NCBI GenBank assembly: GCA_000934665.2 | Contig: JYFJ02000293.1 | Span: 1-64,000, forward strand | DNA: 64,000 nt | From: Catajapyx aquilonaris | Taxonomy: Eukaryota | Direction of reading: 5' to 3' | In this document: in pieces, positions 5,902 to 59,246 of the stretch | How the letters are laid out: each line of letters opens with the position of its first letter | Position numbering within the stretch: position 1 is the stretch's first letter | Translations under genes and position numbers: made by a program | The notes under the pieces: model-generated | Seen by the model: only the letters and a program-made list of their open reading frames with translations | The model's database searches: none | What the model was told of the DNA's origin: nothing

Positions 5902-5964
5902 TGTCATCCTGATAGTATTATGTTTAGCCCAAATTTGGCAAAACATAATACTATCAGGATGACA
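5902..5964. repeat. perfect 24-bp hairpin
   Basis: TGTCATCCTGATAGTATTATGTTT and its reverse complement separated by a 15-nt loop. Confidence 0.8.
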
Positions 5965-6706
5965 CTTGGACGATGTACCCAGCATGAATGGTGTTTTGGT
6001 GTTAGGGTCGATAGCCTGTGAAGTCTTCCCATTTCCTGTTCCATTAATAAGCTGGAAAGAAAATGGGAAGACTACGAGGTTTGAATGAAAGGTGGTAAAT
6101 GATGTGCATAGGCGTGTGATATTGTTTATTTCATATTATTTTTGCGATGTGCAGTGCAATACAAGAGCAATCGTACTGATATAAATTTATATTTATGCTT
6201 AAAAAATCATGGCGCATTTTTGTGCTTGGCCGAGTTTTACATGTTACTTATGCATTGAGTAATTGACACATAATTATAAACTGATATGAAACAAGTAATA
6301 ATACAGAGGTTTGAACAATATTAACAATATTAAGTTTTACGCACATTAAATAAGCATTGAAATCTATTCCATTAAAACAGTCAGTTAATCTGAATGAATA
6401 AACGACGTGATTAATCTTGATCAATTTATTAAGAGTATGAATTACAGCCGCCAAGTACTGGGCATGATTTCGAAGGGTTATATTGCTAATTCATCAGTAA
6501 TCTGCATGAAATAATAATATTATGTAATTCACTCCGATAGAGATTAATATTCTTTTGTCAGGAACATTTAGAACAATAACAACAGCAGAATGAGGGTCAG
6601 GAGCAGCAGTGTAAACATTAGGAACAGCAGCCTTTTAGTCACAGCGAGCCACAATGAATTATGGGCGCATGTATTACGAGATGTTTCAACAGATGGAAAT
6701 GTTACT

Positions 6707-11145: not shown

Positions 11146-13140
11146 TCACAGTTTGCACACACAGAGGATGTGCTCAGAAGCAAAACCTAAAAGAGAAATT
11201 GCCAAACCGACTAACCATAGGTTAAAGATGGCTGCAAGTTTTCCAAGGGTCAAGACGTCGTCTTCATGAGGAGACTTTTTGGCCTCCTGCGCTCTGATGT
11301 ATTCTAATGACTGGAGAAATTGCATGTACATGTAATGCTCTTGGATCTTGAATGGCAGGGCTGTTTCCACTGCTAATCGTAGAAATCTTTGTACGAAGTA
11401 ATGGGTCACACTGTTTGCACGGGTAAGACCTCCGGAAACATACGTCGGAAAGATCAGCTCCTCAGAGACCAGGATGGTTGGTGACCCAGTGGCCGTGTCT
11501 CTGAAGCGATACATTTCTCGAATCAGTAACAAGTCGATTCCAGCACAAGCTAGGTGCTCTTTCAAGGCCCTGTCCAGGCAACGCTGGACGCTGCCTCCCA
11601 ACTTCATTGCCCGAATGAACTTGCTGTGCTTTGGGTTGTCCTGAAGCGAACCGTATTTTTGCAATATGAAGAAATCCATTTGGTCGGCTTCGATCTTCCA
11701 GCCGGACTCGACCAGTTCTGTGAAATCGACAGGGACGAATTCCCTGGGAGGGTAGGTCAGGTAGGCGAATAACTTGGCCTTGTATCCGGTGATGACCACC
11801 ATTGAGAAGAAGAGGAAAGAAGAGGCCAGCACCAGGAAGTGACCCGCTTTGGGAAATGGCCTGGGCTGCTCGATCATGGCTCTCAATAAAATGTTGAATG
11901 ATGCCAACAGCTTCTTTCTGTAGGTAAGTGATTGACTGTGAGGTGCAAAACGTGTCAACGCGAATGTAGATGCCCATAAAATCATTAGTGCGACGATAAA
12001 CGTTACCCAAAACGTTGGTGAGTACGGCCTGTACAGCACTTTCCAGGTGACCTCACCTCCGGGCTTCCTCGTCAAAAAAGAAGCATGAGCATAAAAATGA
12101 GGTCTATGAAAGAGAAAGTGCCTCATAGTTTCCTCCGAAAGAAATACAAAAAATGCTCCATCTATTTTGCCAGAGATCAGGTCCCCTGTTAGTCCGACCC
12201 AAGTTCCGTTTGAAAGGTGACGATCCAAATCTGGACTAGTAACCTCTCTCAGATGATACGTCACATGTGCATTTAGTGATTTCTCTAGTTCAAAAAAAGC
12301 GCGTTCCATATCTGTCAAATGCATTTCACCCATTGTTTTTGCCCTCATCCTCACGTCTTCCATATCAACATTGATGTGGTAATTACCCACCCGATATGTT
12401 TGATTGTTCATCCTATTAGGCTCGCTGGGTCGAAAAATAGGCGGAAGAAAACCGTGGTGTCGGCTGAAGTGTCCGAGAGGAATGAGTTCAGTTTGTCCTT
12501 GGTGTCCGCAAAAGAAGCAAACAGTGTCCATCCGAAGCTTGTCCGACTCCATCAGTGTAGACACTTTGAGCCAGAGTGCACTTGCAGGAGGTGATTTCAA
12601 CAACTGGTGAACCTTCTCTGTTCCTTTCGATTGGAAATGAATCAGGAACCGATCGTATGCAGGCACCAACTTGACCATTGTGGCTGTGTACATGAGAAGC
12701 TGTGCAAACGAAGAGGGTTTCGATGGCAACAGAAGGTGAAGGGTGCAGGGCAGTCCGGACCACGCCCTGGACATGATGTCCGGAGGGACAGTCGCAAAGT
12801 CCAGCATTTCCTTCTGACTTTTCAACCAGGGGAAGTCACGAAATGTGTATGGGAAAGTGGTCATCCGGAGAGTGAATGAGGTCAGGTACTTGTCCCATTG
12901 TGACGAGAGGAGACCCCAAATGTCCTGTCCCAATCGTGTCTTGTCTGTGGACAGGACGAGCCCGCACTGTCTGAGGTCATCTCTTTCAGTCAGAAGAGTC
13001 CTGACCAGCAGAGACACCAGTTTGTCTTCTTCCTGATTCACTACAAGTGATATGTTCCCAACTCCATTCTTCGCTCCTGACCTCGCGTCACCTCCAAAGG
13101 CCACTAAAACCACGGAGAACCAAACGAGCGCTTGCAACAT
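11146..13140 (-). CDS. divergent ionotropic receptor (IR) copy 3, intronless, 664 aa
   Basis: Same iGluR/IR architecture as copy 2 (GYKAKLFAYLTYP); uninterrupted ORF. Confidence 0.88.
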   Translation of the reverse strand: MLQALVWFSVVLVAFGGDARSGAKNGVGNISLVVNQEEDKLVSLLVRTLLTERDDLRQCGLVLSTDKTRLGQDIWGLLSSQWDKYLTSFTLRMTTFPYTFRDFPWLKSQKEMLDFATVPPDIMSRAWSGLPCTLHLLLPSKPSSFAQLLMYTATMVKLVPAYDRFLIHFQSKGTEKVHQLLKSPPASALWLKVSTLMESDKLRMDTVCFFCGHQGQTELIPLGHFSRHHGFLPPIFRPSEPNRMNNQTYRVGNYHINVDMEDVRMRAKTMGEMHLTDMERAFFELEKSLNAHVTYHLREVTSPDLDRHLSNGTWVGLTGDLISGKIDGAFFVFLSEETMRHFLFHRPHFYAHASFLTRKPGGEVTWKVLYRPYSPTFWVTFIVALMILWASTFALTRFAPHSQSLTYRKKLLASFNILLRAMIEQPRPFPKAGHFLVLASSFLFFSMVVITGYKAKLFAYLTYPPREFVPVDFTELVESGWKIEADQMDFFILQKYGSLQDNPKHSKFIRAMKLGGSVQRCLDRALKEHLACAGIDLLLIREMYRFRDTATGSPTILVSEELIFPTYVSGGLTRANSVTHYFVQRFLRLAVETALPFKIQEHYMYMQFLQSLEYIRAQEAKKSPHEDDVLTLGKLAAIFNLWLVGLAISLLGFASEHILCVCKL

Positions 13141-14755
13141 GTCCTCTAGCTTCTTACCTTCTGAAGCCTCTACCTTTGACGACCTTCTCTCCAAATGTCG
13201 CCAATTATTATTGCTACTCTATACATATTTAATTAGGCAGGTCCAAAGTGAGCCGCTGTCATACCAAGTGTGCAGTTACATCTTTAATTATTCGCACAGC
13301 AGTCGGAGGCACTACCGCTACATGCTGTCATGTTTGGTATGATATTACTTACTACAGACTGTATACCTGCTGTCACATATTAGACCAAAATCATTTATTC
13401 CAAAACAGGCAGTCAATACTCAATAACAGCACATGTACAAATTTCACTCATATCTAATTTTAATTTTTTCAGTAAAACTGAAACAACACATGACTTTAAG
13501 CGTCGATAACTTTATCACCGAGATGAGTTACAATTTCTGGCCTAACTAAATGCGTCCAATTAACCTAATATTATTACACAGTTTTATTGTGTTAATTATT
13601 TTGAAGAGATGAGAAATTGGTCGAACCTGGCTGTCAATAAAAAGCTGTAAACATAATATAGTGGATGTTTCTTCCAACTGCCACTAGTTGCTGCTAACTT
13701 AGTAGCACCAATCAATGTTGGCAATCATGGTAAGTCTAATAAGTTAGCAGTGGGACGAAAATTCCACCCATAATTATTTATTATGCACCTGGAAAGTATA
13801 GAAGGATAACATAACAGGCAGTTGGTTGCGTAATTAATTGTTTGTTTAATCTTCCATTGAAACAGCAGCCAAACAACAATAAAAACAGCAGCAATAACAG
13901 CGATGCAGCGATTGGTCGGTTGTGTTGTGTTGGGATATATAGTTACGTCACCTTTGACACATCTCGAGGTTTAAGCCACTTGTTCTGGTCGCAATGACCA
14001 TTTGGAATGTCGCGTTATCACTTCTTCTTTTTTTTTTACACACCTGTTTCGTCGTGTCCTCTGAGGTTGCTACGAGCTACTAAAGCATTGTTAGCGTTTA
14101 ATGTTGGCAGCCACGCAAAAGCACGGTTGGTCCTCTCTCAGTATACTCTTCCAGCTCTGTGGCTTTCGACTGAGACTATATAGCCAGGGTACTACCAGCT
14201 TCATCTTTTTTGTCTGGAATAGTACACCTGACATGTCTCAGACTAGGCCACACTGCACATGATAAAATTATTTGCTGGTAACACCGAAAATTTACCGTCT
14301 ACTTTTTCTCACAGAAAATACTCCTCTATACTCGATTAGGAGCTTGCGACACTTCGTCTGACTCTAACGTGTAATCCCTTGAAATTAAAATTAAAATTAA
14401 TTAATATTATATACTTCGCTGTATCCATATAATGTCCCATTTTTCTTTTGCATGTTGAACGTACAGACAAACGCTATAGTATATTCTGATCGACGATCTA
14501 GTTTGTTGATCTATTTGACTGTATGACACGAGTTTTACATGCTTTGTGATGCTTTATACACCTTGCAGCGCGGTTGGTAAAACCCGGTTTGGACCCAATA
14601 TTTCGGCAAATGGAAGACAACAATTTGTGCAAACGAAAATCGATGGAAATTGGCAAATCTTCTTTAAAAGCGATTAAGCACTTGCATAACCTTGCAATTA
14701 AGAGAAAGGAGATCATTTTACAGTACTTTGAGTAGTTGAAAGGAATTTTCTGCTT

Positions 14756-15210
14756 TAGATAAATTTTTTAGTACGAGCGCAACCGAGTGCGCACGTACAG
14801 TTGCGCAGCTCCATTGCCTTAGGTTCGTTTCTGAGATTTGGCAACGTCGCAAATGTCGGCCATTTTGTTTCGCCCCTCAAGCGTAGCGTTGGAAATAAAT
14901 GCAGAGCTTATTTACCAATACATCCACTATAGCCAGATCTTACCTATTATTTCTTTATAAGCGCAACTGAACAGTTCGCGCAAATTGTTTCCAACACTAC
15001 TTTTGAAGGGGTAACAATACGGTCGACTTTTGTGACATTACCAAGGCTCTGCAACGAAGAACAATAGACTTGCGCGAGCGTTTGTGCGCACTCGGTTGAG
15101 TTCGTAAACAATATTCATCTATAACCATTGATAATGCCAACCGTGCAGGCTGCGCGAACTGTGGTGCGCACTCGGTTGCGCTCGTTTTTTTTAAAAACTA
15201 GATATCATCC
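14756..15210. mobile_element. degenerate foldback/MITE with a duplicated right arm
   Basis: 14756-~14915 pairs imperfectly with ~14975-15121; ACGAGCGCAACCGAGTGCGCAC (14773) is also perfectly inverted at 15164-15185. Confidence 0.7.
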
Positions 15211-15499
15211 ATATTAGCCTAGTGTAATATGACTCCAACCCTCAAGCGAAAGTCTCATCCCAATCAAACTTCCACCAAATAAATTAATTACGTCTGTTGC
15301 TTCCATTTGCAAGGTAACCGCGGTTCGGTGTACGTAATTGACAACAATCAACCAGTAGTAGGGTTGACTCCCAAAAGACACGCCGGTCTTCAACATTATT
15401 TTTTTATCTTTTGGTCCTGCTAACGAAGCGCGCCGTAGTGTTGCGCCGTACTTGAAAATCTTCAAAATTTGCATCCTTCTCTGCAGCAGCTGGAGTTGT

Positions 15500-18400
15500 T
15501 CAGATGATGAGGTAGAAGGACCAGTAGACGGCGTTGAACAGCGTGAACGACACGGGAAAGATGACCCTCGAGTACTTGTCGATGATGTTGACGTCCTTGA
15601 TTTGCGGCATCGACACGTGCAGGTTGCGCGCCCTCTTGCGCAGCGACTGCAAGATTCGGTGGCCCTGTCCTTGCCCCTGATTGGCCGCCGCCGACGTTCT
15701 TTGGTAGTGATGCGCACGCGCGACCCTGATCGACGGAGGTAGACTCGACGATTTGTGGCGCATGCGCAAGGATGGGAGGGGCGACATGTTCAGATCCTCG
15801 GCTATTGGCAGGCGCTGCTGGGGGGCGGAGCCTCCCGATGAGTCTGCGCCTGCGCCGCTGGTTGCGCCTGCGCCGTCCGCGGCCATCTTTGACGCTTTCT
15901 TCTTCGCTCTTGCGCCCCAGTAGGTGTAGTTAACAGCTGCGTACTCCAGCAGCGCAGCGAACACGAACACGAAGCACATCACCAGGTATATGTCTATCGC
16001 TTTCACGTAAGAGATGCGCGGGAGGGAACTGCGCACGCCCGTGCTGATTGTCGTCATGGTTAGCACCGTTGTTATACCTGAAAGATATTAGTCGTTAGCT
16101 GAAGGATACGCAAGTCACGATAACTGTAGCGCTCCTCATGACGAGTTCAGCGCAACTGTTAGCGTGATTCGAGTACGTCTCATAAAGGTACAATCTTATA
16201 CGAGGGGCGCTGTTTTTAGACTTTTTCTTATCAAAAAAAGGTATGTCCGTCCGTGGACAGGTATCAGAGCCTAAACCGTAAGAGATAAGGACAAACGGTT
16301 TTCGGATTCGGATTTATCTGACCCTAAATAGGTTTCATGGCCAACTTCCACTTTTCCTGGGTTCACTCTATTCGCCAACGTCAAGTCTACACGATTTAGA
16401 CATTAATTTTGACCGGTTCATTGGCTAAGGGAAATGACGAGGCTGACAACATTCTATGTGATTGTTCTCCAATTAGAATCGCATCGTGTCGTATCGGTCA
16501 CATTCTAACAATTTCAACCAAGTTGTCAGCCTAATTTCTCGCTGCCCAATGAGAAAAAGTCTACTCGAATCGTGCTCCAAAAGTCTACTCGAATCACACT
16601 CGTTATTTGCCAATCTTGTTTTTTTGGTGGGGGTTCCTAACCGAGAGCTACTCTTGCGGACGTAGCCTCGTGGTTGATCCAGAAGGAGACCCAGGAGAGC
16701 ATGACGATGAGTATCGATGGTAGGTATGTCTGGAAGACGAAGTATCCGATGTTCCTCTGCATTAGGAAGGACAATGAGAGTCGTTGGTACACTCCGGTAG
16801 CCAGCTTCTCCTTCCTGTCCGTGGTTTCGTAGTTGAGGACAGTGAACTGCGGAAGACGTGTTTCTTCCACGCCCATCACCGGACTCGCCTTCCAGTACAT
16901 CACAACGTCGTTGACCGTGTATCCATCTGAAGTGTATCACATTATGAAGCAGATGGCTGTACTATAACACGCAAAAAGATTGTCGCACTGTGTTGTTAGA
17001 GCAAACAAAAAGTTGCGGACAACAGAGTGAGACAATCTTTTTGCGTGTTATAGTACAGCATATACTTACAGCTCTCAATTTCGACTGTACAGTTCTGAGT
17101 GTCCAGTGGGTAGTAGTGTAGGTCCATCATGCAGGCTAGTGTTGTGGTGAACCTCATGCCGTACGTGATGCTTCCGTCTCCGTGCAGCCGTACCATCTTG
17201 TTCCTTTCAGTCACATCGTGCAGGAAGCTGCTTTTGTCGTTGGCGAAGAAAGTGTCCGGCACCCAAATCCTTTCAGCAAAGTCTCCAGACAATGTCAGGA
17301 CGTCCTCTTCTTTGCTGAACGCCAACCGCTCATCCTTCCAGTACTGGTTCAGGTACATTGTGATGGTGTAGTCCTGTGGGTATAAGTAAATAGAAGAGGA
17401 AAAAAGCCCGGAAGTAATTAATTTCTGCTAAGCTTGCAAGACATTCTTGAACCTGCCGCAAAGCTGCATATAAAAATAGAAGCCACAGCATCGATTTAGT
17501 GGTATGCTACATTCAAAAATAAAAGGTCCGCAGGCTCTTTTTAAAATAACAACCATTATTTCATCCATTCATACTGCTGAGGAAGGGGGAAATTATAATA
17601 GACTTGGGATGCGTGTTGGAAGGGCTGTTGGCATCGGGTCTGCTGTTGTGCGCAATATCTCACAAGTTACTTGGCAACCGTGTGACGTCTTTAATCCGAA
17701 AAATCGGTTCTGAGATTTCGCCCTAAATGGAATAAAAAATACTTGTTTTCAACATTAAAAGTACAGCCTGATTTACTATTGTAAAGCAGCTGGATTTATC
17801 GTTGATTTTTGTCTCTTATCAGTTGCCCATGTATAGCCACAGAGAATTCATTAAAAAAGTGAAATCTGATCGAATTGGAATAAATTGTGATTGTCCTACT
17901 TACTAATTACGCATCATTGAGTCATGCTTCGTTTGCAACGGTAATTTGGCGTTACTATCACAGTGGTAACTAAAAATAACGAACATTCCCCGTCTAGTCT
18001 GGGTGTTATGCAAAAAGGAGGTAACCCCAGTGCACAAATAGAAATAGCTTAGTATTTTTGGGCAGCATAAAATGTGGATAGTATAAATTATAATAGTTTT
18101 GCTGCGCTCTGCGAAAAGAAAAAAAAATGTTGAAATGAGTTATGGATAGGGGGGGAAGAGAAAATTTGCAAAAACAAATAACGGATAAATTAGCAGAGGT
18201 CAAAAGCATATTCCGGGTGCCTCGAGGCAATTAACTCGACACAATATGAAATGCCATAATAACATTTCACAAAATAAGCTCGCATTGTGCAGTTAATCAC
18301 AGGAAATGGCGAAACAAGGCCTGCGCTGGAAACAATAAATGCTCATGCCAGCCAAATCTATTGGGCAGTATAATTTCACTCAGAAACTAGTTCTGCGTGT

Positions 18401-20317
18401 GTATACAAAACTTATTTGTTTTTAAAATTTTTGATAGAAGCGGGTCAGCAGTTAACTAACGACAACAAAAACTAGCACTAAAACAACTTCAGCTCCCACA
18501 GACATCAATTAACCAATTAACTTCCTAACAATTCCGCGTTTCTCAAAATTATAGCTGTATCTGGCCCGCCAAAATCCAGAATTATCTATAAATATAATAA
18601 GTTAAGTATACGTATGTGTATATGTACTGTATGTGCAATATAATCATTTTGTAGCGAAAATACATGTACTGAGCTTCTGCGCAGAGCACTTCGCACTACC
18701 CAAGTCCGCAGCAGTTAAAGGAAGGAATAATACTTGAGAAAATTGTGGATTGTTTACCCTCACATTTTAGTTTAAAGAGAAGCGACCTTATACGAGTATT
18801 TTGAGTTGAAAATTCACCCTTCAAATTGTTATCAAAAGTAATTTGTAATTTTTTTGAATAGATAAAGAAAATAAATAGCCTGGCCTTCAAATATCATGGA
18901 GAGAGTCACTGGTCTACATTACCCGAATTCGCATTTTTATTATGTATATAGTAAATTAAAGTAATTTTAATGTCCAAAAATAAAGCAACATACGGCACAA
19001 TGCACATGGCGGGGAACATTAGGCGACAATAGAGCAATTACGTCATAAAAATAGTTTGCAAAATTCTTGGTGCAAAAGATGTGCATGATATTCATGTACA
19101 AACGGTTACTCTATGAATGTTAATAAATACATTATTATTCTAGGTCAAGTTGCATAATATTGAGGCTGGTATGTGTTTCGTATGTCCTCAATTATTTTGA
19201 CAATATATTTACATTTAAAAATAAAAAAAATGAAATGCAGTATTGCAACTTTCAGGTACGAAAAGTTCTTGCTCCAAGCATAAGAGATGTGATTAAGAAA
19301 TGCTAATTGCTTCGAGAACACATCTATACATACATAGTCTAAAGGGATCGCTTGGATCCCAAGAGCTCCACTTATTTAAAAAATGTTCGTCCGAATCATT
19401 ACGAAAGCCTTTATTTCGATATATACTGTATATATTTAAATCCTTTGAATTACTATTGATTTGAACTAATACAATATCAGCCATATTTTATCAGAAAGTG
19501 AGGCTAACAGCATGCCACCTGTCGCACATGTGACATCACTTCTCTCAGCCCAATTTTTTTCCCCGGGCCTGTTGTCTCCACCCCAACTAATGATCAACCT
19601 ATAATAACTGATTGTTTCCCTTCGATCGCAAGTATTCGGACAAATTCCCCCAGTTCGCGTGTCGCCGCGCATAGCGAATCATTCACTTGCCGACTGATAT
19701 GTGTGTTTACGGTCCGGGTAATGGGTCTATTTTGAAATAAATAAATCCCCTGCTAGTGTAGCAGGGATTTGCCAAGCGCTATTCATCCTTCCAGAGAGTG
19801 ATCGATTGTTACCAAAATCATGCGCGCCGGCGCACCTGCAGCATCCAAAATGGACTCACCTTGCACACACACAACATCATCATCAAAAAAGGGGTGGGTG
19901 GGTGGAACTCACAACAACAACAACAACATTTATCGGGGAAAACCAATAAGAGCACTCACCATGTTCACCTCCGATATTGAATCGAAACTCGCTATGTTCA
20001 AGTCCATTCCGACGTAAAGAGCATCTCCTGCATATAGGATAAACAAATTACAGTGACATTGACCTAGTTGTCGATTTATATAGGACGTACCGCCAAAATT
20101 GGGCCTGAGCCGGATGTCATAGTCGTCCAGCATCGTCTGGAGGGTTTGAGTCACGTTATTCAGCCGGTTGCTGGACGTCGCCCCCAACATGTCACTTCTG
20201 CCAACATAACAAATGCGACACTGACATTGCAATAATTAAACTCCCCCCCGAAGACTAATTGAGCAATTACCTGGCTGCGAGGAAGAGGCTGAATCCGAGA
20301 ATGAGAGGCTGGGCCAT
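15500..20317 (-). CDS. Lcch3: GABA receptor beta-like Cys-loop subunit LCCH3, 462 aa
   Basis: Exons 20317-20271, 20197-20091, 20027-19960, 17373-17070, 16926-16642, 16077-15500 (1389 nt, GT-AG, phases consistent); signal peptide [26 protein letters not shown]; Cys-loop [16 protein letters not shown]2 region [41 protein letters not shown] typical of LCCH3. Confidence 0.95.
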
Positions 20318-20782
20318 TTCATCCAGGAGCCCAGAGCCACCGTCTTGTGGAGGATTCCCTGGATCCGACACCAGGGGGCAGCTAGGGCGGACGGCGCCGT
20401 CGTTGTCGCGATTTTGTCGCCGTCGTCACACCCACCCCACCCCACTCTTGGCCCACCCCAGCCTCCCAACCACCTCCTCCAAACACCACTTTAGTGTCAA
20501 CCTGGATTGGTGTCACCCACTTGGCAAACGATCGTATGTTGATGCCTTTTTTTTGTTGAAAGGGGTGTGGGTTAGATGGGAGGAAAAAGAAAGAAAGAAG
20601 AAGAAAAAAGTCATAAGATGCGGAAAAATGAGCGAAATATGTAAACACGCTCTAAATCTAGTGGTTGGAATATCCTCCAGTATGATTTGAAAAGTTGGAA
20701 CAGCTGGGTGGTCAATATAGGGAACATCTTGTATGTCATACTACACGTGCAGCATCGAGGGGTTAGTCACTTATGAAATCCT

Positions 20783-21187
20783 TCGTACACCGAGACTGAA
20801 GTCCGGCTCTAGTCTGGTCGAAGTCCAGGTGAAGTCGGGCCGATGTCGGGCCGATGTCGGGCCGAAGTCCGACTGAAGTCTGGTCGAAGTCCAGGTGAAG
20901 TTCGGTCTAAGTCGGGCCGATGTCGGGCCGAAGTCCGGTCGAAGTCTGGTCGAAGTCCGACTGAAGTCCGACTGAAGTCTGGTCGAAGTCCAGGTGAAGT
21001 CCGGCCGAAGTCTGGTCGGAGTCCGACTGAAATCTGGTCGAAGTCGGGCCGAAGTCCGGTCGAAGTCCGACTGAAGTCCGACTGAAGTCTGGTCGAAGTC
21101 GGGCCGATGTCGGGCCGATGTCGGGTCGAAGTCCTGTCGAAGTCTGGTCGAAGTCCGACTGAAGTCTGGTCGAAGTCCGTCGTACAC
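20783..21187. repeat. 11-bp minisatellite (GAAGTCYGGTC / GAAGTCCGACT / GATGTCGGGCC), ~35 units
   Basis: Tandem 11-mers at 20791-21179, bounded by the direct 8-mer TCGTACAC at 20783-20790 and 21180-21187. Confidence 0.9.
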
Positions 21188-21894
21188 TATTATTATAGTA
21201 TCAAATGACTTTTAACCCATCGTGCAGGATACTTCGTTTTAAGAAGTATATCCTGCAGGATATTCCTTCTAGGCTCAACATGATCTAAACTTTGGCCACG
21301 TCTCGAACGCGATTCTATTCCCAATGGGCCTACTAAACAAAGTCAGTAGGTTAGATCCATGAGGGCGGAATGATCAAAAATGTATGTGACTGTTGATGAC
21401 AAGGTGGGAGGAGGATCGGAACATATGACGTAATAATTTTGCAGTAGAGCAAAGTCCTGTGCCAAGTGATTATAAACCTGTCATCTGCCCAGAGGAGGAG
21501 GGAATGGTCCAAGCCTGGGAAGTGATGTCATTATTAAAGGCGTTAAAAGCAAAAAGGTGTTGCGAGCTCCCCAAAACTAATCGATTTTCACTGTTCCCTC
21601 AGCTTCATCGGGTACTAGTTAAGGTAATATTGCATCAGTGTGACAGTAGGATATGGAGAAGCTCAAGACGATTGTCATTAGGCACATTTGCGGATGAATG
21701 TATTAAAATTTTATATAACGTTTGTGCAATCTTTTCCGGTATTAATGAAGGTGCTTTACCGTCTCCCCATCAGTTCAGATTTCCTACAAAAATTACACCG
21801 TATTTAAAAGTGTCGCCAAAAAGAGATGCAATTGTCCGAATCATTTTTTGACATGTCGCATTGGGTTCAGCGGATTTCCAGTGAACTAATAGGA

Positions 21895-22172
21895 GCATCC
21901 TATTGGCTGTGAGACAACCTGCGCTTGACGAACTGCGCAGCCACGCATGCGCACAACCCACAGTCCATCCTATTGGCTGAGACTTCCCGCACCTGCGCAT
22001 AACAAACCGTGCAGGCATGCATGCGTACAATCAGTCCATCCTATTGGCTGTGAGACAACCTGCGCTTGACGAACTGCGCAGCCACGCATGCGCACAACCC
22101 ACAGTCCATCCTATTGGCTGAGACTTCCCGCACCTGCGCATCACAAACTGAGCAGCCAATGGGCATGCGCGC
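21895..22172. promoter_or_regulatory. tandem CCAAT-box / GCGCATGCGC-like array in the divergent GABA-subunit promoter
   Basis: 141-bp duplication made of ~70-bp subunits; CTATTGGCTG at ~21900, 21970, 22041, 22111; forward GCAGCCAAT at 22152; CGCATGCGCA at 21944 and 22085. Confidence 0.6.
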
Positions 22173-22345
22173 AACCCAGAGTACGCGGTTCACTACCTTC
22201 TGAACGCAACCAAATATCCAGACCCGGCCGTTGACCAACTGGGTGGTAATTCCGTCTTCTCACGTGATCGCCATAACTTTCGCTGGTCCTCTCTCCACGG
22301 GTGAGAGGGCGTCTTCTTTCGCACCCAGTTTCAACCAGGACGGCG

Positions 22346-25300
22346 ATGGAACCGGTACTGGCGGTGGTCCTCCTGGCCGTACTGGCGCCTGGATGTCTGG
22401 GCAACAGTTTTAGTTTCCTCAATCGCCACCAGTCGCTGAGGGCTGACACAGTGACGTCACTCCTGGACAGTCTATTGGCCCAGGGAAGATACGACAAGCG
22501 AATCAGGCCTCAGTTCGGAGGTGAATATATTTATTTAAAAAAAAAACGTGTGTCATTCGCTAAAAGAAAAAATGGTGCACATGTAATGGTTTTTTTTTCT
22601 ATTCGCAAAGAGTTGCACTATTTTTTTTACGACTTTCTGCATTTATAAACGCACCGGAGTTGAAAATAGAGGCGCCATTTGGCTGGCCTCAAGGTTTTTG
22701 CTTTGCTGGGTCGCCCATCATTCTTATAGCGACTGTCATTTTGCGGGGTTGTTTTTCTTATCCCTCTCGTCTGTAGGTCGTGACTCAATTTTTCGCTATC
22801 CAGCAGCTTTAATGTCCGCTCTCTCAAAGCCACACACACACCACCACAACCATGAAAACCAGGAATAGAACTGAAGACATTTCATTCACACTTAACACGC
22901 GTGCGGTATACTCTTTGCAGCTTCCGGTCGACTCCGCATATCTTTCTGGCCGCCCAAATTTACAAGGTGTTTCGCAATTCGGATTCTACGCGCCAAGAAT
23001 AATGTCCTATCATACTAGTCCACTGTGTTTTTATATAGTATGTCCCATCAGGTAGTAGTTAACCACAGTTTTAACTTTCCCTGTTCAACAATATAATTAG
23101 ATGACATAGCGGTCAGAGAGGGTACTTCTATCAACTGCTATTATAGCCAAACTCTCTTAGACAATCGCATGGTTTACTTCTTTTGGTCATTATGGGACAC
23201 ACTGTATTAATCTGAATCCCTGGAGTCGTTAGCTCAGTTTGCCAGGAAGTTATCCGAAGAGAGACGCGCCACAAAATTGGGTGTTTAACCGTGATGGAAG
23301 GTATCCGGTCATTAGCAAGGCACAACACATTGGGTGTATAAACCAGCTGTGTAAATGCAATAGGTGCTCCAACATTATTCTTGGTAAAATGTGCATCACA
23401 AGAGCAGTAAAAATTGATGCTCCATGCGATGCTAATGGTTTACTTACTGTTTACAGTGTCCACTAAGGTGATCTTACCATAATTGTCAAATGCTTCAGAC
23501 AATATGTCTCCACATATCCATCAGTGTTCTAGCAGCAATTGGCTTATTAGGAATAAGAAGGATTAGAGCCACGTGCCATGTGATTCATATCCGGTGGTGG
23601 TCAAAATAGTATAAGCGACTCAGATGCATCATTACGACATGACGTCGTTCAAGTTGCACAAATAGAGAGAGTACTTTGATCTCCCTAGTTGCGATTATGC
23701 CAGGTACTATCATTTCGCAGCATCATCTTTTCCATGTGTGTGGAATCACTTGAAGGCATAAATTTGCCTATGCTGGTTACATACACAAGTCAGCCAATCC
23801 TGGTTGTTGCCATGAACACTTTTTCGGTTCGTATTGCCCCCCATTTGACCAGCAGGAGTGCTAAATGTTTCAAGCAATATGTCTCTTCAACTATTCAGCA
23901 CACTGGTTACTCCTCCACATCCTGTACACCCTGTGGTCTTGAACACGTGCCGAAGCCCACAGGTGTCGGCATGTCCACGATGCAATCTCATTACACATCA
24001 TCCTTGAAATTCGTCACAAGAGATCCATAAGACGCCAAGAAATTGCTTGTTCAGCACTTGCGCCCCCTTCAAAAAAAAACAGTATTTTTTTTTTCTTTTT
24101 TAAAAAATGGGGGCGTCGTCGTATCGAATCGGGAATCAGGTCCAAACTAGTGTGGGATGGGGGACAGAGTTGGAATCCGGCTTCTCCGGAAATAAATATT
24201 GGGCAAGGCGGCAGCAACCACCTGCGCCCATTAATTACCATTCCCCCACCCCCAACCCCCTTTGCCTTGCCCGGGGGCGCCATCTTGGCTCCAGGATCCT
24301 TGGGATTGGAGCCAAGAGAAGCTTGTTCCAGAGAACCACCTAAAAAACTTCCGAGTTCTACAAGACACCAGACTATTATCTCCATCCTTACACAAACATC
24401 AACAACAAAACGTCGGCCTCGTTTCTCATGCCTTTCTTTCATTCACAACACGTCCCATCCAGACCATTGTCCCCTGCCATTACCAGACAGCTATTTTAGA
24501 TAATGGCCTCCCGACTGCTCATATGTACTCAACATGCTTTTTTCTCTCTCTCACTTGATGAGTCTGGGGCATTTCCAAGTGTTGTTAGCAGACAAAGCAG
24601 GGGGAATTTGTCTCCTTTCATTATTATAACCGGCGAAATATATTACTTTTGGCAAAATGCTGCCCGCGGACAATATTCGTCTCACAATAACCTTTTTCTT
24701 CTTTTAAAAAAGAGAAATTGCGGGAGGTATTTTTGAGGGAGGCCCAAAAATGCCTGGGAGTTAATCACTGTCGGTCTGTATCCACTAATTGAACGCGGTG
24801 AAGTACATTCAAAGGGGAAAAAAGCTTCGTCGTCGTTACATGCCCCATATGTGGTCACGCGCAAACCCGGCATGCGCGGAAGGATAACTGGTGTAGAGAA
24901 TCTGCGATCTTTGATATGTCTCAAGAGTGCTAACAAACTTCCAGAAATCTTTATCTTATATACATAATAAATAAAAGCACAGAAAGTTTGTCTGTATGTC
25001 CGCGGGCTACCTAGCCCACTTCTGGACTACTCAAGAGTACTGAAACTTGGCTGACTGGGGCGAAAACCGCACTGTTTCTTACATAATAAACCAGAAAGTT
25101 TGTCTGGATGTCCGGGATGAAACTTGGTTGATTGAGGGAATAGTCCGAAAACAACCGCACTTTTCTTACATGATAAAGCAGAAAGTTTGTCTGCATGTCC
25201 GGGATGAAACTTGGCTTGAGAGAATAGTCCGAAAACCGCACTTTTTCTTACATAATAAACCAGAAAGTTTGTCTGCATGTTCGGGCTACCTATATAGCCC

Positions 25301-27347
25301 ACTTCTGGACTGCTGATAGCTCTTGAACTTGGCTGATTGAGGGACGGGAACACGCATTTTTTATGAGTCTCAGTATACCGTTGTAAATTTTTTTTCTAGT
25401 CTTGCATACATCTTGATTTCAGGTCCACCAGTTGTCGTTACAGTCAACCTGTACATCAAAAGTATGGGACCTGTTTCAGAAAATGATGAGGTGAGTATAT
25501 ATGCCCTTTCCTCCGCGTGGTCAATTTTCATCCTGACATGATGCAACCCAATCGTTTTCCATAGACATTCTCGATGGACTGCTACATGAGACAGTTTTGG
25601 TACGACGACAGATTGACGTACAACAAGAGCCAGACCACGGAGTTCTCCATGAACTGGCTGTTCCTGGAGAAGCTGTGGAAGCCTGACACGTACTTTGTTA
25701 ATGGAAGGAAGTCTACGTTGCACAAGATCACCGTGCCTAACAAGTTCGTCCGGCTCAGATATGACGGGTTTCTCACCTACTCAATGCGGTACCGTACAGC
25801 AATGCAGTGCAGTGCGTTTCATAGATATATAATGATGAATGTACCCAGGTAGCACACTTCGTCGGCCCGATATCGGCGATTCGTCGGCCCGATATCGGCG
25901 AATGACACCGGGCCGATGTCGGGCCGATGTCGGGCCAATGTAAAACGGTTAACTTGTTGTCACATCGGGCCGACGTTGGCATCCGGTGTTGGGCCGATGT
26001 TGGCATACGGTGCTGACCCGATCTACATTATACCCTATTATATTGGTTGCAGATTGACAATAGCATCTCGATGTCCGATGCATTTGCACAAGTTTCCTCT
26101 GGATTTGCAAGCCTGTGCTCTGGATATTGGAAGCTGTAAGTATAGGGCACATTGTATCTATCGTCTGAAGTATCCCTTTTTAAATCATGTACACCGTGCA
26201 GATGGATACAGCAAGGAAGATGTGATATACCAGTGGTCCACAGTGGACAGCGTGACCCGAGAGAAGACGGTCAACTTGGCCCAGTACGACCTAGTGCATA
26301 TGAACACTTCAGAGCGTCTCACCAGACCAGCCTTTCAGGACAAAGGTACTGTCATCTTCCTGGTGATACATACATACATCTGATGACACTTTTTTATTTT
26401 CCATAAGGCAATATGAGTCGTCTCCGTGCCGTGTTTTACCTCCAGCGACACACGGGCTACTTCCTGCTCCAAGTGTACATTCCGTGCACACTGATCGTCT
26501 GCTGCTCTTGGGTCGCGTTTTGGATCGACGCCGAGGCGGTACCGGCAAGGATCACATTAGGTACAAACTGTCAACGACCTATTTGTTCAGAACAAGGACT
26601 ACCACTGTATACACTCTTTTTTCGAAACCAGACCGACGATGTACAAGTTGCAAGGTCGCCATGAAATTAGGGTCAGACTGTATAGTACAGGATGTCTGTA
26701 CTCCCCAAAAAAACACAGGTTTTTTTTTCCCATAATGATTTTAACAAATTTTTGTCATATTTTTAGGAGTGACAACGGTGCTGTCGATGACGACGCTGGG
26801 CTTCGGTGGTAGGTCGCAGATGCCTCGTGTGTCTTATGCGACGGCGCTGGACTGGTACGTGATCATATGCTTTGCGTTCGTGTTCGCTTCGCTGGTGGAG
26901 TTCGCAGTCCTCAACTTTGTCCAGAGAGTGGCCAAGCAGCGGAGGAAGATGGCCGCAGCAGCTGCAGCAGCAGCCACCGTGGACATATCTGAGGTGCCTC
27001 CTACGCCACCGACGGAGGAGCCGATGGATGTGGATGCCCCGATGAAGCCAGCCCGATGGCAGCAGCTGCGTCTGGTGGCCAGAGATGCACGTCGTCGCAT
27101 GGCCAGGGCGGCAGCTCAGATGAAGCAGATGAGGAGGGAGAAGATGGATGATGACGACGGCGGCGGAGCAGGAGCAGAGCTCCACGAGGAAGGGTTCTCC
27201 AGACTGGACCTCTACGCCAGGAAGTTCTTCCCGATTCTCTTCGCATTCCTCAATGCCATTTACTGGATCCTCTTCCTCTACTACCTCAGGGACCAGCACG
27301 AGCACCAGCAAGCCGCACCAAAGAAAAAGCTCATTGGTGGAGACTAG
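22346..27347 (+). CDS. GABA-A alpha-like Cys-loop subunit (PAR-type M2), 475 aa
   Basis: Exons 22346-22520, 25423-25490, 25565-25788, 26053-26135, 26202-26345, 26408-26560, 26767-27347 (1428 nt); signal peptide; YDKRIRPQFGG, SMGPVSE, SMDCYMRQ, WKPDTYFVNG; Cys-loop CPMHLHKFPLDLQAC; M2 VPARITLGVTTVLSMTTLGFGGR; SYATALDW; M4 LDLYARKFFP. Confidence 0.93.
24947..25345 (+). mobile_element. Helitron-like non-autonomous fragment with internal ~80-90 bp repeats
   Basis: Starts ATCT..TATATACATAATAAA followed by AGAAAGTTTGTCTGTATGTCCGCGGGCTACCTA; this block recurs four times and is homologous to the 48.8-49.4 kb array; Helitron class inferred from general resemblance. Confidence 0.5.
25843..26010. mobile_element. 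truncated DNA-transposon/MITE end with 11-bp subterminal repeats
   Basis: ACCCAGGTAGCACA start followed by GATGTCGGGCC / GATATCGGCG repeats; lies in intron 3 of the alpha-like gene; shares a unit with the 20.8 kb array. Confidence 0.5.
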
Positions 27348-28984
27348 TCCGCACAGAAAAAATATAAAGATCTGAATCCCCCAACTTTGTTTGTATGCCT
27401 AACACATACATAGCGCCTTGTATTTTACTAACACTTAATAAATTATAAGATAAAACACATTGCGTACTAGTTGTGGTAAAATAAACATGCGCATTTCCTG
27501 CCAACAGTATTTTTAATTAATTGGACCATCCATATAAAACACAGAAGGCAGTGTGAGCTGCTTGGTATACACTATACATGTCGATTATACACAAAAATCC
27601 AACCGTTTATTTTTTTTGTTCTTGACGGCTCCTTTTTGTTGGGAGTGAACTTTTTTTTTTTCCGGTAATAATTCTTTTCTTCTTCCATATATGGCAACAT
27701 TTGCTCGTGGATTTATTTTGTTAAGTCCGCAGGGCACAGTCACTGTCACAATCTTACGAAACTCTTTGACGATAAAAAAAAAAAGAAATGTCCCCCCTTT
27801 TGTTTCTTTGTACTTGAATAATAATGTTCGGTTACAACATATACTGGAAATGCAGCCAAAATATAAAAACAACTAGTATGAAAAACTGGGCTGTTGAAAA
27901 AAAAAAAAAATGAACCAAAAAAATTAAGGGAACTGTGTGACGAGCTTGGAATCGACTAGAAAAAAAAGTCTTGCCGTCCCCCCCTGCCTCAGCATATACA
28001 ATAATAAATACACTTTTTATAATCTTTTAGTGGGAGGGGGAAATAGCAAGGGGGGAGGTGCTTGAAAAGGAATGTGCATTGAACACCTGAACAACAAAGC
28101 AAAAAAATTTTAAATGCAGGCGAGGCCAAGTTGCGAGTCCACACACTTGGAAACGGGGGACAAGTAAAGGAAAGGGTGGGATGTGTTGTGTGTGGCCATT
28201 GCAATAAGTGTAGTAGTTCTCTTGCCGCACACAAGGCGAGGGTAGCACCTGCGGCTGAGCAATTCAACTACTATGGCACCTGTCCATAGTCAAATAAAAA
28301 GGTTGCATAAATTTTACGAACATCTTCTGCTGAAGAGTGGGATCTACCAGCATGGTTTATACTGGCCAACAGTGGCACAGACAAGGTGCTACCGCGCATT
28401 TTGGTCAAATAAGGGACCTACCACATTATTACGCCTGTCACTGGTTATGTTAACAATTCAATATCCGTCCATGTAATCATGTGAAAGAAGGGAGGGAGGG
28501 GACAAGGAATGGTTAAAAAGGCACTTTGGTCACATATCTTTCTCCTCCACTTTTGTGATTGGTCCTTTTCTCTGGTCGTTTTTTTAAAATACAAATGAAC
28601 ACTTAGGAACGCCCAATGTAAACACTCAGCACCATGATCCCTAACACAGTGATCGTCGCCATAAAAGGAGGGGGATCTCCTAACTTTTTGAGCACGAGTG
28701 CACATCATGGGCGCCCACATTAGGTACCAAAAAAAGAAAATACAAAAAATAATAATCAGGAAACACAAAAAAAAGAGAGACTCGACAGTCTCTGCGGAAT
28801 GTGAAAGCAAACATCCAGGATGAGTCAAAACGTGCCCTTGTTTGGTGCCAGCAAAAACAACACTCAGGCAAATCTAAATGGCCCCCGCACACCCCACTGT
28901 GATGGCAGAGGTTACACATACGATTACGCCAAAATTTGGACGGCACCATTTTGAGTCACCCTGTACTTTTGGAGGGAGGGACAG

Positions 28985-31900
28985 TCATATCCGGGGCTTG
29001 TACGTAAGGGTGATGTGGAAGGTGTGCATGTCCGTCTCGGTGCAGTCACGCTCTGTTATGGGAGGTTCCTCTGAAGAAGTCCCGCCTCCAGCACCTCCTG
29101 CTTCCCCAGTGGCCCCGCCCACTTCCATCTCGGCCCCTCCCCCTTCCATCTTGACTCCTCCCCCAGCACCGCCTCCTTCAACCTCTGCCCCACCCTCCAC
29201 AGCTCCTCCTCCTCCCACATCCCTGACCCTCCCTCCATTCTCCTTGTTCTTCTTGCTGCTCCCCCTCCTGAGAGGAATTCTCCTGTCCTTATCCCGACTG
29301 GACGTCCGGCGAAGCAGCTGCTTCAAGGACTCAGCACTGGCGCTCAGGCCACCTGTAACAACAATGCAGATATGTAAACGATTCCTGCGATTGATAGTAC
29401 GTCCAGGGAGCATATACTACATAAGAGGTGCAAACATTCGATTTCCGCGTCTCTCTGTTTGGGGCGTTGCCAAGGCTGGCGGCCATTGTGAAGTGGGGGC
29501 AACCTCAACGAGGTATAAATAGGGTACAGGCAATAATTGGGTCCGCCATCTTTGATTCGCCCGTGTTCTCGACGTGTAGTTGCCATGGCCGCCAAAACCA
29601 TCATAGATGGCGGACCCTATTTTTGCCTGTACGCAGTATCCTATTTATACCTCGTTGGCGTTCCCCACACTTCAAGATGGCCGCCAGCATTGGCAACGGC
29701 CCCAAACAGAGAGACGCGAACATCAAAGGCGCCGACAGAAGTTTGCGCCTCTTATGTAGTATATGCTCCCTGGTACGGCCAGCTGTCATAAGTCGACTCT
29801 TACAATAAAATAGAAAAGATAGTAATAATGCAGGGTCATAATTCCATAATTTGTTAGTTGGTTAACTTAATGGCTAAAGGTACGTATATTTGAAAAAAAC
29901 TCGCTCCTCATAATTGAGCAACCTAAGCGCTTTTAAAAAAATCAAGCACCTCAAACACGTAACACATGGATTTAGAACAACATTGATGCAATTGAGATGC
30001 AAGTCGTTAAATCGCATGTTAGAGAGCAATGTGTTCTAAAAAATTACCCGAAATGTCCTGACCTTATTGCCAACGGAAAGGACATGCACAATCCTAGCAG
30101 CAAACAATCCCACATCAAACCCAAATTCAGCAAACAGAAAGCAGACATAAATAGTGCATTTCAGTCCCAACGATAGGTTGGATAACATCCGCCGGTCACA
30201 TGGGGTCGGAATTAGTAAATTTCACCTTACAGTCAACACAAAAAAAAAGCCGGAGCGAACGGAAACGGGAGCTGGGACAGAGTACGGAACAAAAAAAAAA
30301 AACCCAATGAATTTCCCCCACATCTGACGGTAATCTTTGGACCCAACATGACTTGAGCCAAATCCCATCTCTCACAAGACTGAATGCACCGTTTTATTGA
30401 GCAGGCGACAGGGAGGGCTTGGATGACCCCTGACCTCTGTGCATCATGACCATCCCCTGTGGCTGGCACTGGTTGGCGAGACCAGTCTCTTCCCTGAGGA
30501 CGTGCAGGGAGGTGTCGGAGTCCGCCTCCAAGATGGCACTTTGAGGGCGGACCCCCAAGTGGTGCATTTGCTGGGTCATCTGCTGGTGCATCTGGTGCAG
30601 TTGCAGTGGGGACAGGAACCACTCCGAACGGGTGCGCATGCGGGCTGCCTGCCTCTCGTGGACCTGCAGCCCCCATATGCCACAGACAAAGGGAGGAGAA
30701 GAGAGGGACGGATCGGGGGAGGAGGGGGGGAGAACAGACCCAGAGAGAGACAGAGACCCAGTCAATAACACATGTGTCCACACACCAAAAACGTCCAATC
30801 TCTCGCACCATACATTTTTATCCCCCACAAGCCACTTTCGCTTCAACCACACACACACATGGGAGTATGTACAACTTAAATTCAGCACCTGCTAAGCTTT
30901 CTGAGCGGTAAGTTAACCACTGGAAGGGTCGTTCAGGTTTCAACCTTGCGACAAATCATATGTATTTCTTAATCTCTCTCAAAAAAATCCAATGATAGCT
31001 CACAATTTCATTGCGCAAGACAGAAAACAATTAAGGCATTTATCGCTCCTTTGTGAGATCAAAGCCCCTTCACGTACACATAAGGTTAGCCCATTGTGAG
31101 TTTTACAGTATTATTTAGCACCTTGACCTGGCCAGGGAATCCAATAGTTCTGCATTAATCAGCATAAGCCATATTAGCAGTGGGAGACAATTCGCAAACA
31201 TGATGACAAATTGTGCAAATTTATCATCATCGTACCGTTTCACAATAAATTTAATGCAAACCAACAGCAGCAAAAATGCCGACTTATGCCACCGTTTCAC
31301 TTCTGACTAGTGCATCACATAGCAGAATCCCCTAGTCACGTTGCCAATTACTGAACAAAGCAACTTCCTGTTGGGTGTTAGTATGTTAAATCTAATGATA
31401 CACATACCTCATTAAACATAATTTTGCATAATTATACAAGTGGTCATGCTAACCCATCCAATTCACCACCGTCCCAGAGCAGATGGTGAATTGCGGGTTG
31501 TGCACAATGTGCATGCAGCTAACAAATAAGTGAAAGAGGGTTAGACCATTGAAAGAGGTGCGGTTTGTGCAGGCAGCCCCAAGTGACTGACCTTCCACGG
31601 CTGGAAGCTCCTCCTTCCCAAGTCCGACTGTCCCGGCATCCATCCCGTCCATCCTTCCTTCCCAGGCCGCTCTCTGCCATGCTAAGCCAAGTTTCGGAGG
31701 GAGGAAGTGAAAAGAGGATGGGTGGGGTGGCGGTTGGGGGGGCAAGTGGGTAAAGGCAATGCCTATGTACAACCATGCTATGTACATGCGATCAAAATTG
31801 AGAGTACTGACCTGCGGGAGAAACGAGAGGCTCTTTGTGCTCTCGGCATAACGGTTGACCTGCTTAAGCTCCTCTAGGGTCATGTGGGGACTGGATGATC

Positions 31901-46740: not shown

Positions 46741-59246
<12,506 letters not shown>

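What the first reader, a model, noticed from the sequence alone, without database searches (positions are those of the whole stretch)
15500..27347. Head-to-head beta/alpha GABA subunit pair predicted to form a vertebrate-style chloride channel
Seen: LCCH3 and a second subunit diverge with ATGs 2.0 kb apart. The partner has alpha-type complementary-face motifs (loop D DCYMRQ with Arg, loop E TVPNKFVRL). Its loop C lacks the principal-face Tyr (DKGNMSRL), whereas LCCH3 supplies EIESYGY and TGVYQRL. Its M2 starts PAR (anion-selectivity motif) with Thr at 2'. Established: insect GRD and CG8916 have ADR/SDR here, and GRD+LCCH3 forms a GABA-gated cation channel. Inference: this is not GRD/8916 but a separate alpha-like lineage (possibly nearer nematode LGC-37 or molluscan alpha-like subunits). 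It may be co-expressed with LCCH3 as an obligate heteromeric, non-RDL inhibitory receptor with distinct picrotoxin/fipronil sensitivity.
Basis: partly seen in the sequence, partly recalled or inferred. Interest (0 to 1): 0.78.

Follow-up and report, generated by a model that had tools for sequence, protein, structure and literature searches.

The report
Known arthropod GABA-receptor gene pair
Two intact GABA-receptor genes face away from each other in an ancient, already described alpha/beta layout, and the second one is the known but functionally untested arthropod subunit HoCas, whose pore sequence predicts that the pair forms an inhibitory chloride channel.

Summary
Observation confirmed: LCCH3 (minus strand, 6 exons, 462 aa) and an alpha-like subunit (plus strand, 7 exons, 475 aa) diverge with ATGs 2,029 bp apart; all quoted motifs are present. 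The partner is not GRD or 8916 (AU p=1e-4), but it is not a new lineage. It nests at 100/99 support in the published arthropod clade HoCas (8916_2, GABA-3) with three named members. That paper (PMC11275251) already reports closeness to lcch3 and leaves function open. Head-to-head alpha/beta pairs are known from nematodes to vertebrates and are co-expressed in C. elegans (PMC5065314). Added here: the same divergent LCCH3/HoCas layout in 2 of 2 HoCas loci with upstream flank, and a clean pore split: no acid at -1' in 108 of 108 HoCas rows, Asp in 142 of 142 GRD/8916 rows. A GABA-gated chloride heteromer is likely (about 0.6) but untested. Loops D/E do not distinguish the clades, 'non-RDL' is unshown, and distinct picrotoxin/fipronil sensitivity is weakly supported. 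LGC-37 orthology was not tested. The scan's earlier notes held nothing similar.

The parts
15500..20317 (-). LCCH3 (beta-type GABA receptor subunit) gene, 6 coding exons, 462 aa; principal-face loops B and C; M2 begins SAR, Ala 2', Thr 13'; no Arg in loop D
   Evidence: Gene model; Pfam; beta clade in tree; 87% core identity to a copepod orthologue, 80-81% to the beta genes of L001 and L002
22346..27347 (+). HoCas (8916_2 / GABA-3) alpha-like subunit gene, 7 coding exons, 475 aa; signal peptide, Cys-loop C163-C177, four TM helices
   Evidence: Gene model; hydropathy; tree (100/99); 66% core identity to Periplaneta 8916_2 versus 47-49% to GRD and 8916 anchors
20318..22345 (.). 2,028-bp divergent intergenic region, candidate shared (bidirectional) control region
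   Evidence: Coordinates; shared control is inferred from C. elegans gab-1/lgc-37 (PMC5065314); no conserved DNA with L001 or L002 intergenic regions
25577..25594 (+). Partner loop D (Tyr and Arg of the complementary GABA face)
   Evidence: the same Tyr/Arg pair in 107 of 108 HoCas, 12 of 12 GRD and 128 of 130 8916 rows, the rest gaps
25730..25756 (+). Partner loop E motif TVPNKFVRL
   Evidence: near-identical in GRD and 8916
26339..26424 (+). Partner loop C, across intron 5; Met where most hexapod-side HoCas have Phe or Tyr
   Evidence: 38 of 45 hexapod-side rows have F or Y here
26542..26556 (+). Partner M2 start: PAR at -2' to 0', Thr at 2'
   Evidence: vertebrate gamma-2 has the same AVPAR in the PDB alignment
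26793..26795 (+). Partner Thr 13' (anion-type; GRD has Phe)
   Evidence: PMC11037462 for the meaning of the position
16652..16660 (-). LCCH3 M2 start SAR
   Evidence: matches SA at -2'/-1' described for louse LCCH3 (PMC11037462)
16778..16798 (-). LCCH3 loop C TGVYQRL (principal-face Thr and Tyr)

Best explanation
This is the ancestral bilaterian head-to-head beta/alpha GABA-A gene pair, kept in an arthropod as LCCH3 (beta) plus HoCas (alpha-like). Shown: both genes are intact, the partner is HoCas, the layout recurs in two other arthropod loci, LCCH3 has the principal-face residues (loop B Glu/Tyr, loop C Thr/Tyr) but no loop D Arg, HoCas has the loop D Arg but no loop B Glu and no loop C aromatic, and neither carries an acidic residue at -1' or a hydrophobic one at 13'. 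Inferred: the 2-kb intergenic region drives both genes in the same neurons; the proteins co-assemble; GABA binds at LCCH3(+)/HoCas(-) interfaces; because in louse and bee LCCH3 is described as neutral for charge selectivity and its partner decides, a PAR/Thr13' partner makes the pore chloride-selective. The pair would be the inhibitory counterpart of the cationic GRD/LCCH3 and 8916/LCCH3 channels.
For: Gene models and motifs. Tree: partner inside HoCas with QQH14658.1, UOV21278.1 and XP_028968418.1 at 100/99, with the -2' to 0' columns left out. Divergent LCCH3/HoCas layout in L001 and L002, under 5 kb between the first matched exons; intron positions of the L001 gene match the partner's. No D/E at -1' in 108 of 108 HoCas rows, D in 12 of 12 GRD and 130 of 130 8916 rows (rows include isoforms and near-identical relatives, so they are not independent). 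Precedents: gab-1/lgc-37 head-to-head, co-expressed in 25 neuron classes from a shared intergenic region (PMC5065314); GAB-1 plus HG1/LGC-37 forms a GABA-gated heteromer while neither does alone (PMC8841521); LCCH3 gives anion channels with RDL and cation channels with GRD (PMC11037462).
Against: No expression or functional data for this locus or, in the searched library, for any HoCas subunit. In louse, hocas transcripts far exceed lcch3, grd and rdl (PMC11275251), which does not fit tight one-to-one co-regulation. Only 40 of 108 HoCas rows keep the full PAR (37 AGR, 25 PGR, 6 others), so PAR is not a strict invariant of the clade. LCCH3 also partners RDL, GRD and 8916, and native stem-borer receptors held RDL with LCCH3 (PMC13207392). 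The intergenic DNA is not conserved with L001 or L002. Proximity to lcch3 is also true of 8916 in holometabolous insects, where the product is cationic.
Confidence: 0.6

Rival explanations
1. HoCas works mainly inside mixed receptors, with RDL or as a third subunit beside LCCH3 and GRD/8916 (an alpha-beta-gamma-like assembly), tuning charge selectivity or pharmacology rather than forming a stand-alone binary channel.
For: Louse GRD/RDL and LCCH3/RDL injections gave GABA currents (PMC11037462; the authors note heteromers still need confirming). hocas, 8916 and lcch3 lie together in Hemiptera, Blattodea and Chelicerata (PMC11275251). HoCas and 8916 records share the same longest-contig length in several species, e.g. 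Stegodyphus 539,680 and Cryptotermes 1,746,769 (indirect).
Against: No third GABA subunit gene lies in this 64-kb window. The two genes supply exactly complementary binding faces. The nematode pair works as a binary receptor.
Confidence: 0.25
2. The linkage is inherited gene order without functional coupling: the genes are expressed apart, and HoCas needs another partner or ligand.
For: HoCas was lost in all Holometabola and is far more highly expressed than lcch3 in louse (PMC11275251). No conserved intergenic sequence.
Against: The divergent layout is kept in the window, L001 and L002 although their proteins are only 68-81% identical to the window's; the shared-promoter logic is shown in C. 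elegans; loop D Tyr/Arg is invariant in HoCas.
Confidence: 0.1
3. The heteromer forms but is cation-permeable or poorly selective, like GRD/LCCH3 and 8916/LCCH3.
For: Every tested LCCH3 heteromer with an arthropod alpha-like subunit was cationic (PMC11037462; Huang 2021 as cited in PMC13207392). LCCH3 here lacks the -2' Pro (SAR).
Against: Those partners carry Asp at -1' (142 of 142 rows); this one has Ala, with Pro -2', Arg 0' and Thr 13'. Vertebrate beta-type rows also lack the Pro (AAR) beside PAR alpha and gamma rows. LCCH3 in L001 and L002 itself carries PAR.
Confidence: 0.05

Closest known systems
HoCas / 8916_2 / GABA-3 subunit (Hashim et al. 2024, PMC11275251; Rispe et al. 2022, PMC9219234; Jones et al. 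2021, not seen)
   Same: Same clade (100/99); 7 exons as in louse hocas; next to lcch3; PAR and Thr 13' as in Periplaneta 8916_2, whose GenBank record is already titled 'putative cys-loop ligand-gated anion channel subunit'.
   Different: Thr at 2' (6 of 108 rows) and Met in loop C where most hexapod-side members have Phe/Tyr; a very short 2.0-kb head-to-head gap; no 8916 gene beside it in the window. The HoCas paper gives no orientation and, in my term searches of its text, no pore-selectivity argument.
C. elegans gab-1 / lgc-37 pair and the GAB-1/HG1 heteromer (PMC5065314, PMC8841521)
   Same: Head-to-head beta/alpha layout; neither subunit works alone; predicted shared control region.
   Different: Co-expression and heteromer function are shown there and only inferred here. 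Whether LGC-37 is the HoCas orthologue was not tested (no such sequence in my set).
Vertebrate GABA-A alpha/beta(/gamma) receptors and their gene clusters (PMC1934366)
   Same: Head-to-head alpha and beta genes; PAR-type alpha with a beta lacking the -2' Pro; loop D aromatic plus Arg; Thr 6' and Thr 13'.
   Different: Only 42-44% core identity; HoCas groups with protostome GRD/8916 (97/88), and a special HoCas-deuterostome clade is neither found nor rejected (p=0.055); no gamma gene in the window; 2' is Thr, not Val or Ser.
Insect GRD/LCCH3 and 8916/LCCH3 GABA-gated cation channels
   Same: Same beta partner and the same complementary-face loops D and E.
   Different: Asp at -1' in both (and Phe 13' in GRD) versus Ala and Thr here; separate clade (AU p=1e-4).

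Membership tests
HoCas (8916_2 / GABA-3) | Falls in the fifth arthropod GABA clade with Pa-8916_2, Ir-GABA-3 and Go-GABA-3 | tested here: met
   IQ-TREE, 66 rows, 22-row clade at 100/99 holding the three named accessions; same result in FastTree sets of 267 and 135 rows
HoCas (8916_2 / GABA-3) | Gene lies close to lcch3 | tested here: met
   2,029 bp ATG to ATG; same layout in L001 and L002; published for louse, Hemiptera, Blattodea and Chelicerata
HoCas (8916_2 / GABA-3) | Seven-exon gene with signal peptide, Cys-loop and four TM helices | tested here: met
   intron positions match L001; louse gene has 7 exons, its intron positions were not compared
HoCas (8916_2 / GABA-3) | Host is a non-holometabolous arthropod | tested here: inconclusive
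   Organism not given; the gene branches next to springtail plus insect HoCas (98/94), which fits a non-insect pancrustacean, from one gene tree only
GRD | Asp at -1' and Phe at 13'; GRD clade | tested here: not met
   Partner has Ala and Thr; 12 of 12 GRD rows have D and F; anchor Ixodes GABA-5 Grd-like; AU p=1e-4
8916 (CG8916) | Asp at -1' (SDR/ADR); 8916 clade | tested here: not met
   130 of 130 rows have D; anchors Apis mellifera 8916 and Ixodes GABA-4; 47% core identity; AU p=1e-4
LCCH3 (beta-type), for the minus-strand gene | Beta clade; SA at -2'/-1', Thr 13', loop B Glu/Tyr, no loop D Arg | tested here: met
   Beta clade 99/96 with a hemichordate beta-3-like record; motifs as described for louse LCCH3. 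No sequence labelled LCCH3 was in my set
Nematode LGC-37 / HG1 | Orthology in a tree with a named LGC-37 | not tested
   No identifiable LGC-37 among the sequences fetched
Vertebrate GABA-A alpha subunit | One-to-one clade with deuterostome alpha/gamma | tested here: inconclusive
   Not in the best tree; forcing HoCas with deuterostome alpha/gamma costs 7.6 lnL, p-AU 0.055
Anion-selective Cys-loop channel | Pro -2', neutral -1', Arg 0', Thr 13' | tested here: met
   Sequence signature only (meaning from PMC4569296, PMC11037462)
Anion-selective Cys-loop channel | Measured GABA-gated chloride current | not testable with these tools
   Needs electrophysiology

The most novel reading that the evidence does not exclude
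LCCH3 plus HoCas is the surviving ancestral alpha/beta GABA-gated chloride channel of arthropods, the true functional counterpart of vertebrate GABA-A receptors, co-transcribed from a bidirectional promoter. GRD and 8916 are duplicates that turned cationic by one Asp at -1' before the protostomes split (a brachiopod has all three types on a contig of the same length), and holometabolous insects lost the anion-type copy. Lice, cockroaches, bugs, springtails, crustaceans and ticks would then have a second, non-RDL inhibitory GABA receptor that flies, bees and beetles lack.
Probability: 0.4. Interest if true: 0.65.

Novelty: new member of a known kind. Interest (0 to 1): 0.33.

Why it matters
The gene and the layout are known kinds, so the locus itself is ordinary. 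Its value is a sharp, cheap prediction about an open question: HoCas has been cloned but, in the papers I could search, never expressed. If HoCas/LCCH3 is a chloride channel, arthropod GABA inhibition is not RDL-only outside Holometabola. That would explain why the Drosophila, bee and moth alpha/beta pairs look oddly excitatory, and it would bear on how GABA-receptor insecticides act in lice, cockroaches, bugs and ticks compared with bees, and on non-target soil and water arthropods.

Tried and rejected
No whole genome is held for the window. RNA runs: none was listed, so no reads were laid. The scan's earlier notes: no look-alike stretch, and the words lcch3 and hocas met no finding. No third GABA subunit gene in the window by tblastn with 6 queries. 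Intergenic DNA: no useful blastn match to L001 or L002 (one 13-base hit, E 0.69). A CCAAT plus GCATGCGC cluster at 21896-22182 looked like a bidirectional-promoter signature (a recalled idea), but it is one roughly 70-bp unit repeated 3.6 times and GCATGCGC is absent from both other intergenic regions, so it was not counted as evidence. Loops D and E were rejected as markers of a separate lineage because GRD and 8916 share them. Partner grouped with GRD+8916: rejected. Partner grouped only with brachiopod, clam and annelid PAR subunits: rejected. The ESM Atlas look-up with a springtail HoCas gave only generic GABA-A alpha clusters. No nematode LGC-37 could be identified in the fetched sets. 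Structure and complex prediction were not run: any two Cys-loop subunits would be expected to pass by likeness to solved GABA-A receptors. Four key papers were not held (Gisselmann 2004, Henry 2020, Jones 2021, Menard 2018). No supplements were opened; those of PMC11275251 and the unseen cockroach paper may already note the PAR motif or gene orientation.
Full report
1. Observation. Reading 15000-28500 and joining exons at GT-AG borders gives two intact genes: a 462-aa beta-type subunit on the minus strand (20317 to 15500, 6 exons) and a 475-aa subunit on the plus strand (22346 to 27347, 7 exons). Their ATGs are 2,029 bp apart and divergent. Pfam finds the ligand-binding or membrane domain in 4 of 4 exon translations given. 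The models lack RNA support, and the LCCH3 first exon is the weakest part.

2. What the partner is. Its third exon's best relatives are springtail and mayfly proteins at 68-72% (8 of 8 hits). A search with one of them listed 120 of 734 hits. Accession look-up showed three to be sequences that Hashim et al. 2024 (PMC11275251) name as members of a fifth arthropod GABA clade, HoCas: QQH14658.1 (Periplaneta 8916_2), UOV21278.1 (Ixodes GABA-3) and XP_028968418.1 (Galendromus GABA-3). Anchors for the other clades were Apis mellifera 8916 and Ixodes GABA-4 and Ixodes GABA-5 Grd-like. Deuterostome, beta, RDL-like and outgroup rows came from a search of cluster representatives (best 150 of 17,565 listed); 65 of its 139 new proteins had a near-complete domain and were used. 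Most of these rows are unnamed: the alpha and gamma labels rest on identity to the two halves of a turtle record and on the PDB gamma-2 alignment; the RDL, UNC-49, GlyR and GluCl labels are recalled from motifs.

An IQ-TREE mixture-model tree of 66 rows chosen by me from the 135-row set, with the three selectivity columns removed, puts the partner inside a 22-row arthropod clade with all three HoCas anchors (100/99), and within it next to springtails plus insects (98/94). FastTree sets of 267 and 135 rows agree. Holding the partner with GRD and 8916 is rejected (p-AU 1.0e-4), and so is holding it with the lophotrochozoan PAR subunits alone (p-AU 6.6e-5). Core identity is 66% to Periplaneta 8916_2, 68-71% to springtail-type genes, 53-55% to the chelicerate anchors, 47-49% to GRD and 8916, and 42-44% to vertebrate alpha and gamma rows. 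The partner is therefore a HoCas orthologue.

3. Deeper relations. Brachiopod, clam and annelid subunits with PAR sit beside arthropod HoCas in the best tree, unstarred (77/87). GRD and 8916 each have lophotrochozoan members carrying ADR or SDR (99/94 and 100/97). Lingula has one of each type, all with the same longest-contig length of 1,057,451, indirect evidence of one cluster. So the three alpha-like types, and the Asp at -1', appear to predate the protostome split (inference). A clade of HoCas with deuterostome alpha/gamma is neither found nor rejected (p-AU 0.055).

4. Gene order. A metagenome scan with a springtail HoCas gave 35 loci. I inspected the tblastn output for 11 of them. L001 and L002 are the two with 10 kb of upstream flank; both fall in HoCas, and both carry an LCCH3 gene on the opposite strand, diverging, under 5 kb between the first matched exons. 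The intron positions of the L001 gene match the partner's. The other inspected loci begin within or just before the alpha-like gene and showed no beta gene. No third GABA subunit lies in the window. Hashim et al. already report hocas close to lcch3 in louse and, with 8916, in Hemiptera, Blattodea and Chelicerata. Gendrel et al. (PMC5065314) state that alpha and beta genes lie head-to-head throughout animal genomes and show that C. elegans gab-1 and lgc-37 are co-expressed in 25 neuron classes from their shared intergenic region. The vertebrate case is described in PMC1934366. The layout is thus expected, not surprising.

5. Mechanism. Shown in sequence: LCCH3 has loop B Glu/Tyr and loop C Thr/Tyr but Asn in place of the loop D Arg; the partner has loop D Tyr/Arg but Gly in place of the loop B Glu and Met in loop C. 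By established GABA-A anatomy (recalled; faces described in PMC4569296) each lacks half of the site, so GABA should bind at LCCH3(+)/HoCas(-) interfaces. These loops are shared with GRD and 8916 and do not distinguish them. The pore does: among the 267 rows, 0 of 108 HoCas rows have D/E at -1' (PAR 40, AGR 37, PGR 25, AAR 3, SGR 2, DSR 1), against D in 12 of 12 GRD and 130 of 130 8916 rows; GRD also has Phe 13' (rows include isoforms and close relatives). In louse and bee the partner of LCCH3 sets the charge: anionic with RDL, cationic with GRD (PMC11037462), and cationic with 8916 (cited in PMC13207392). A PAR/Thr13' partner should therefore give a chloride channel. In L001 and L002 LCCH3 itself reads PAR. 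The nematode GAB-1/HG1 pair is a GABA-gated heteromer (PMC8841521; the passage gives no ion selectivity). Co-expression, assembly and chloride selectivity are all inferred; my combined estimate is 0.6.

6. Against. Louse hocas is much more highly expressed than lcch3. PAR is complete in only 40 of 108 HoCas rows. LCCH3 has other partners, including RDL in native moth receptors. Position 2' in HoCas varies (A 44, S 30, Q 12, C 12, T 6, other 4 of 108), GRD has Ser there, and louse GRD/LCCH3 was blocked by picrotoxin and fipronil as well as RDL was, so the claim of distinct blocker sensitivity is weak, though 2' and 6' changes do matter in some RDLs (PMC9146934). The intergenic DNA is not conserved.

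7. Literature seen. PMC11275251: term passages, part 2 of 5 of the text (late methods, results), the whole discussion and figure legends. PMC5065314: passages and one named section. Passages only: PMC11037462, PMC9219234, PMC8841521, PMC13207392, PMC4569296, PMC2064938, PMC1934366, PMC9146934 and bioRxiv 10.64898/2026.09.08.749565. Not seen, known only as cited: Gisselmann 2004, Henry 2020, Jones 2021, Menard 2018, Huang 2021, Feng 2002, Tsang 2007, Darlison 2005. I found no functional study of HoCas: 'HoCas'+'GABA' and '8916_2'+'cockroach'+'cys-loop' each returned only the 2024 paper, and the listings showed none by title. The library lacks most subscription journals, and no supplements were opened.

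8. Verdict. A real, intact, ordinary member of a known gene pair: LCCH3 plus HoCas. What remains of interest is the untested and easily tested claim that HoCas/LCCH3 is a chloride channel. Novelty: new member of a known kind. Interest 0.33.

Noticed in passing
window 1677-13218, minus strand: Tandem array of three near-identical (91-93% DNA) intronless ionotropic-receptor-like genes (Pfam Lig_chan); the copy at about 1677-3777 is split over two frames near 3000, so it may be a pseudogene or an assembly slip.
   Followed up: partly
L001:3248-3568 and L002:1380-1964, minus strand: The LCCH3 genes of these two springtail-like loci read PAR, not SAR, at the M2 start, so both subunits of the pair there carry the full anion motif.
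   Followed up: partly
P0048 (WMV64439.1) and P0128 (T1E191): A spider record named 'GABA-gated anion channel Grd subunit' and its cluster mate fall in the HoCas clade (AGR, Thr 13'), not in GRD; spider 'GRD' labels may be HoCas.
   Followed up: partly
P0257 (ASY91959.1): A Chilo suppressalis record named GRD is in the 8916 clade (SDR), like the Bombyx mislabel noted in PMC11275251.
   Followed up: partly
P0009, P0097, P0342 (Lingula): A brachiopod has PAR-type, GRD-type and 8916-type alpha-like subunits with the same longest-contig length, hinting at a protostome-wide three-gene alpha cluster.
   Followed up: partly
window 21896-22182: About 70-bp unit repeated 3.6 times, 160-450 bp upstream of the HoCas ATG, carrying five CCAAT boxes and three GCATGCGC motifs; not conserved in L001 or L002.
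   Followed up: partly
window 20798-21179 and 25858-26022: An 11-bp-period GC-rich tandem repeat in the intergenic region, with related short arrays in HoCas intron 3.
   Followed up: no
window 44709-45722, plus strand: Long open frame with a 7tm_7 gustatory-receptor-like domain, lying between an INCENP-like stretch (label recalled; no Pfam hit) and a receptor tyrosine phosphatase gene with fn3 repeats at about 47300-53900.
   Followed up: no
window 31452-37488, minus strand: RhoGAP-domain gene downstream of HoCas, convergent with it.
   Followed up: no
P0042, P0030, P0049, P0051, P0053, P0066, P0089 and relatives: Decapod and stomatopod HoCas records show alternative M2 versions, some with Lys or Asn at 13', apparently alternative exons in the pore-lining segment.
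   Followed up: no
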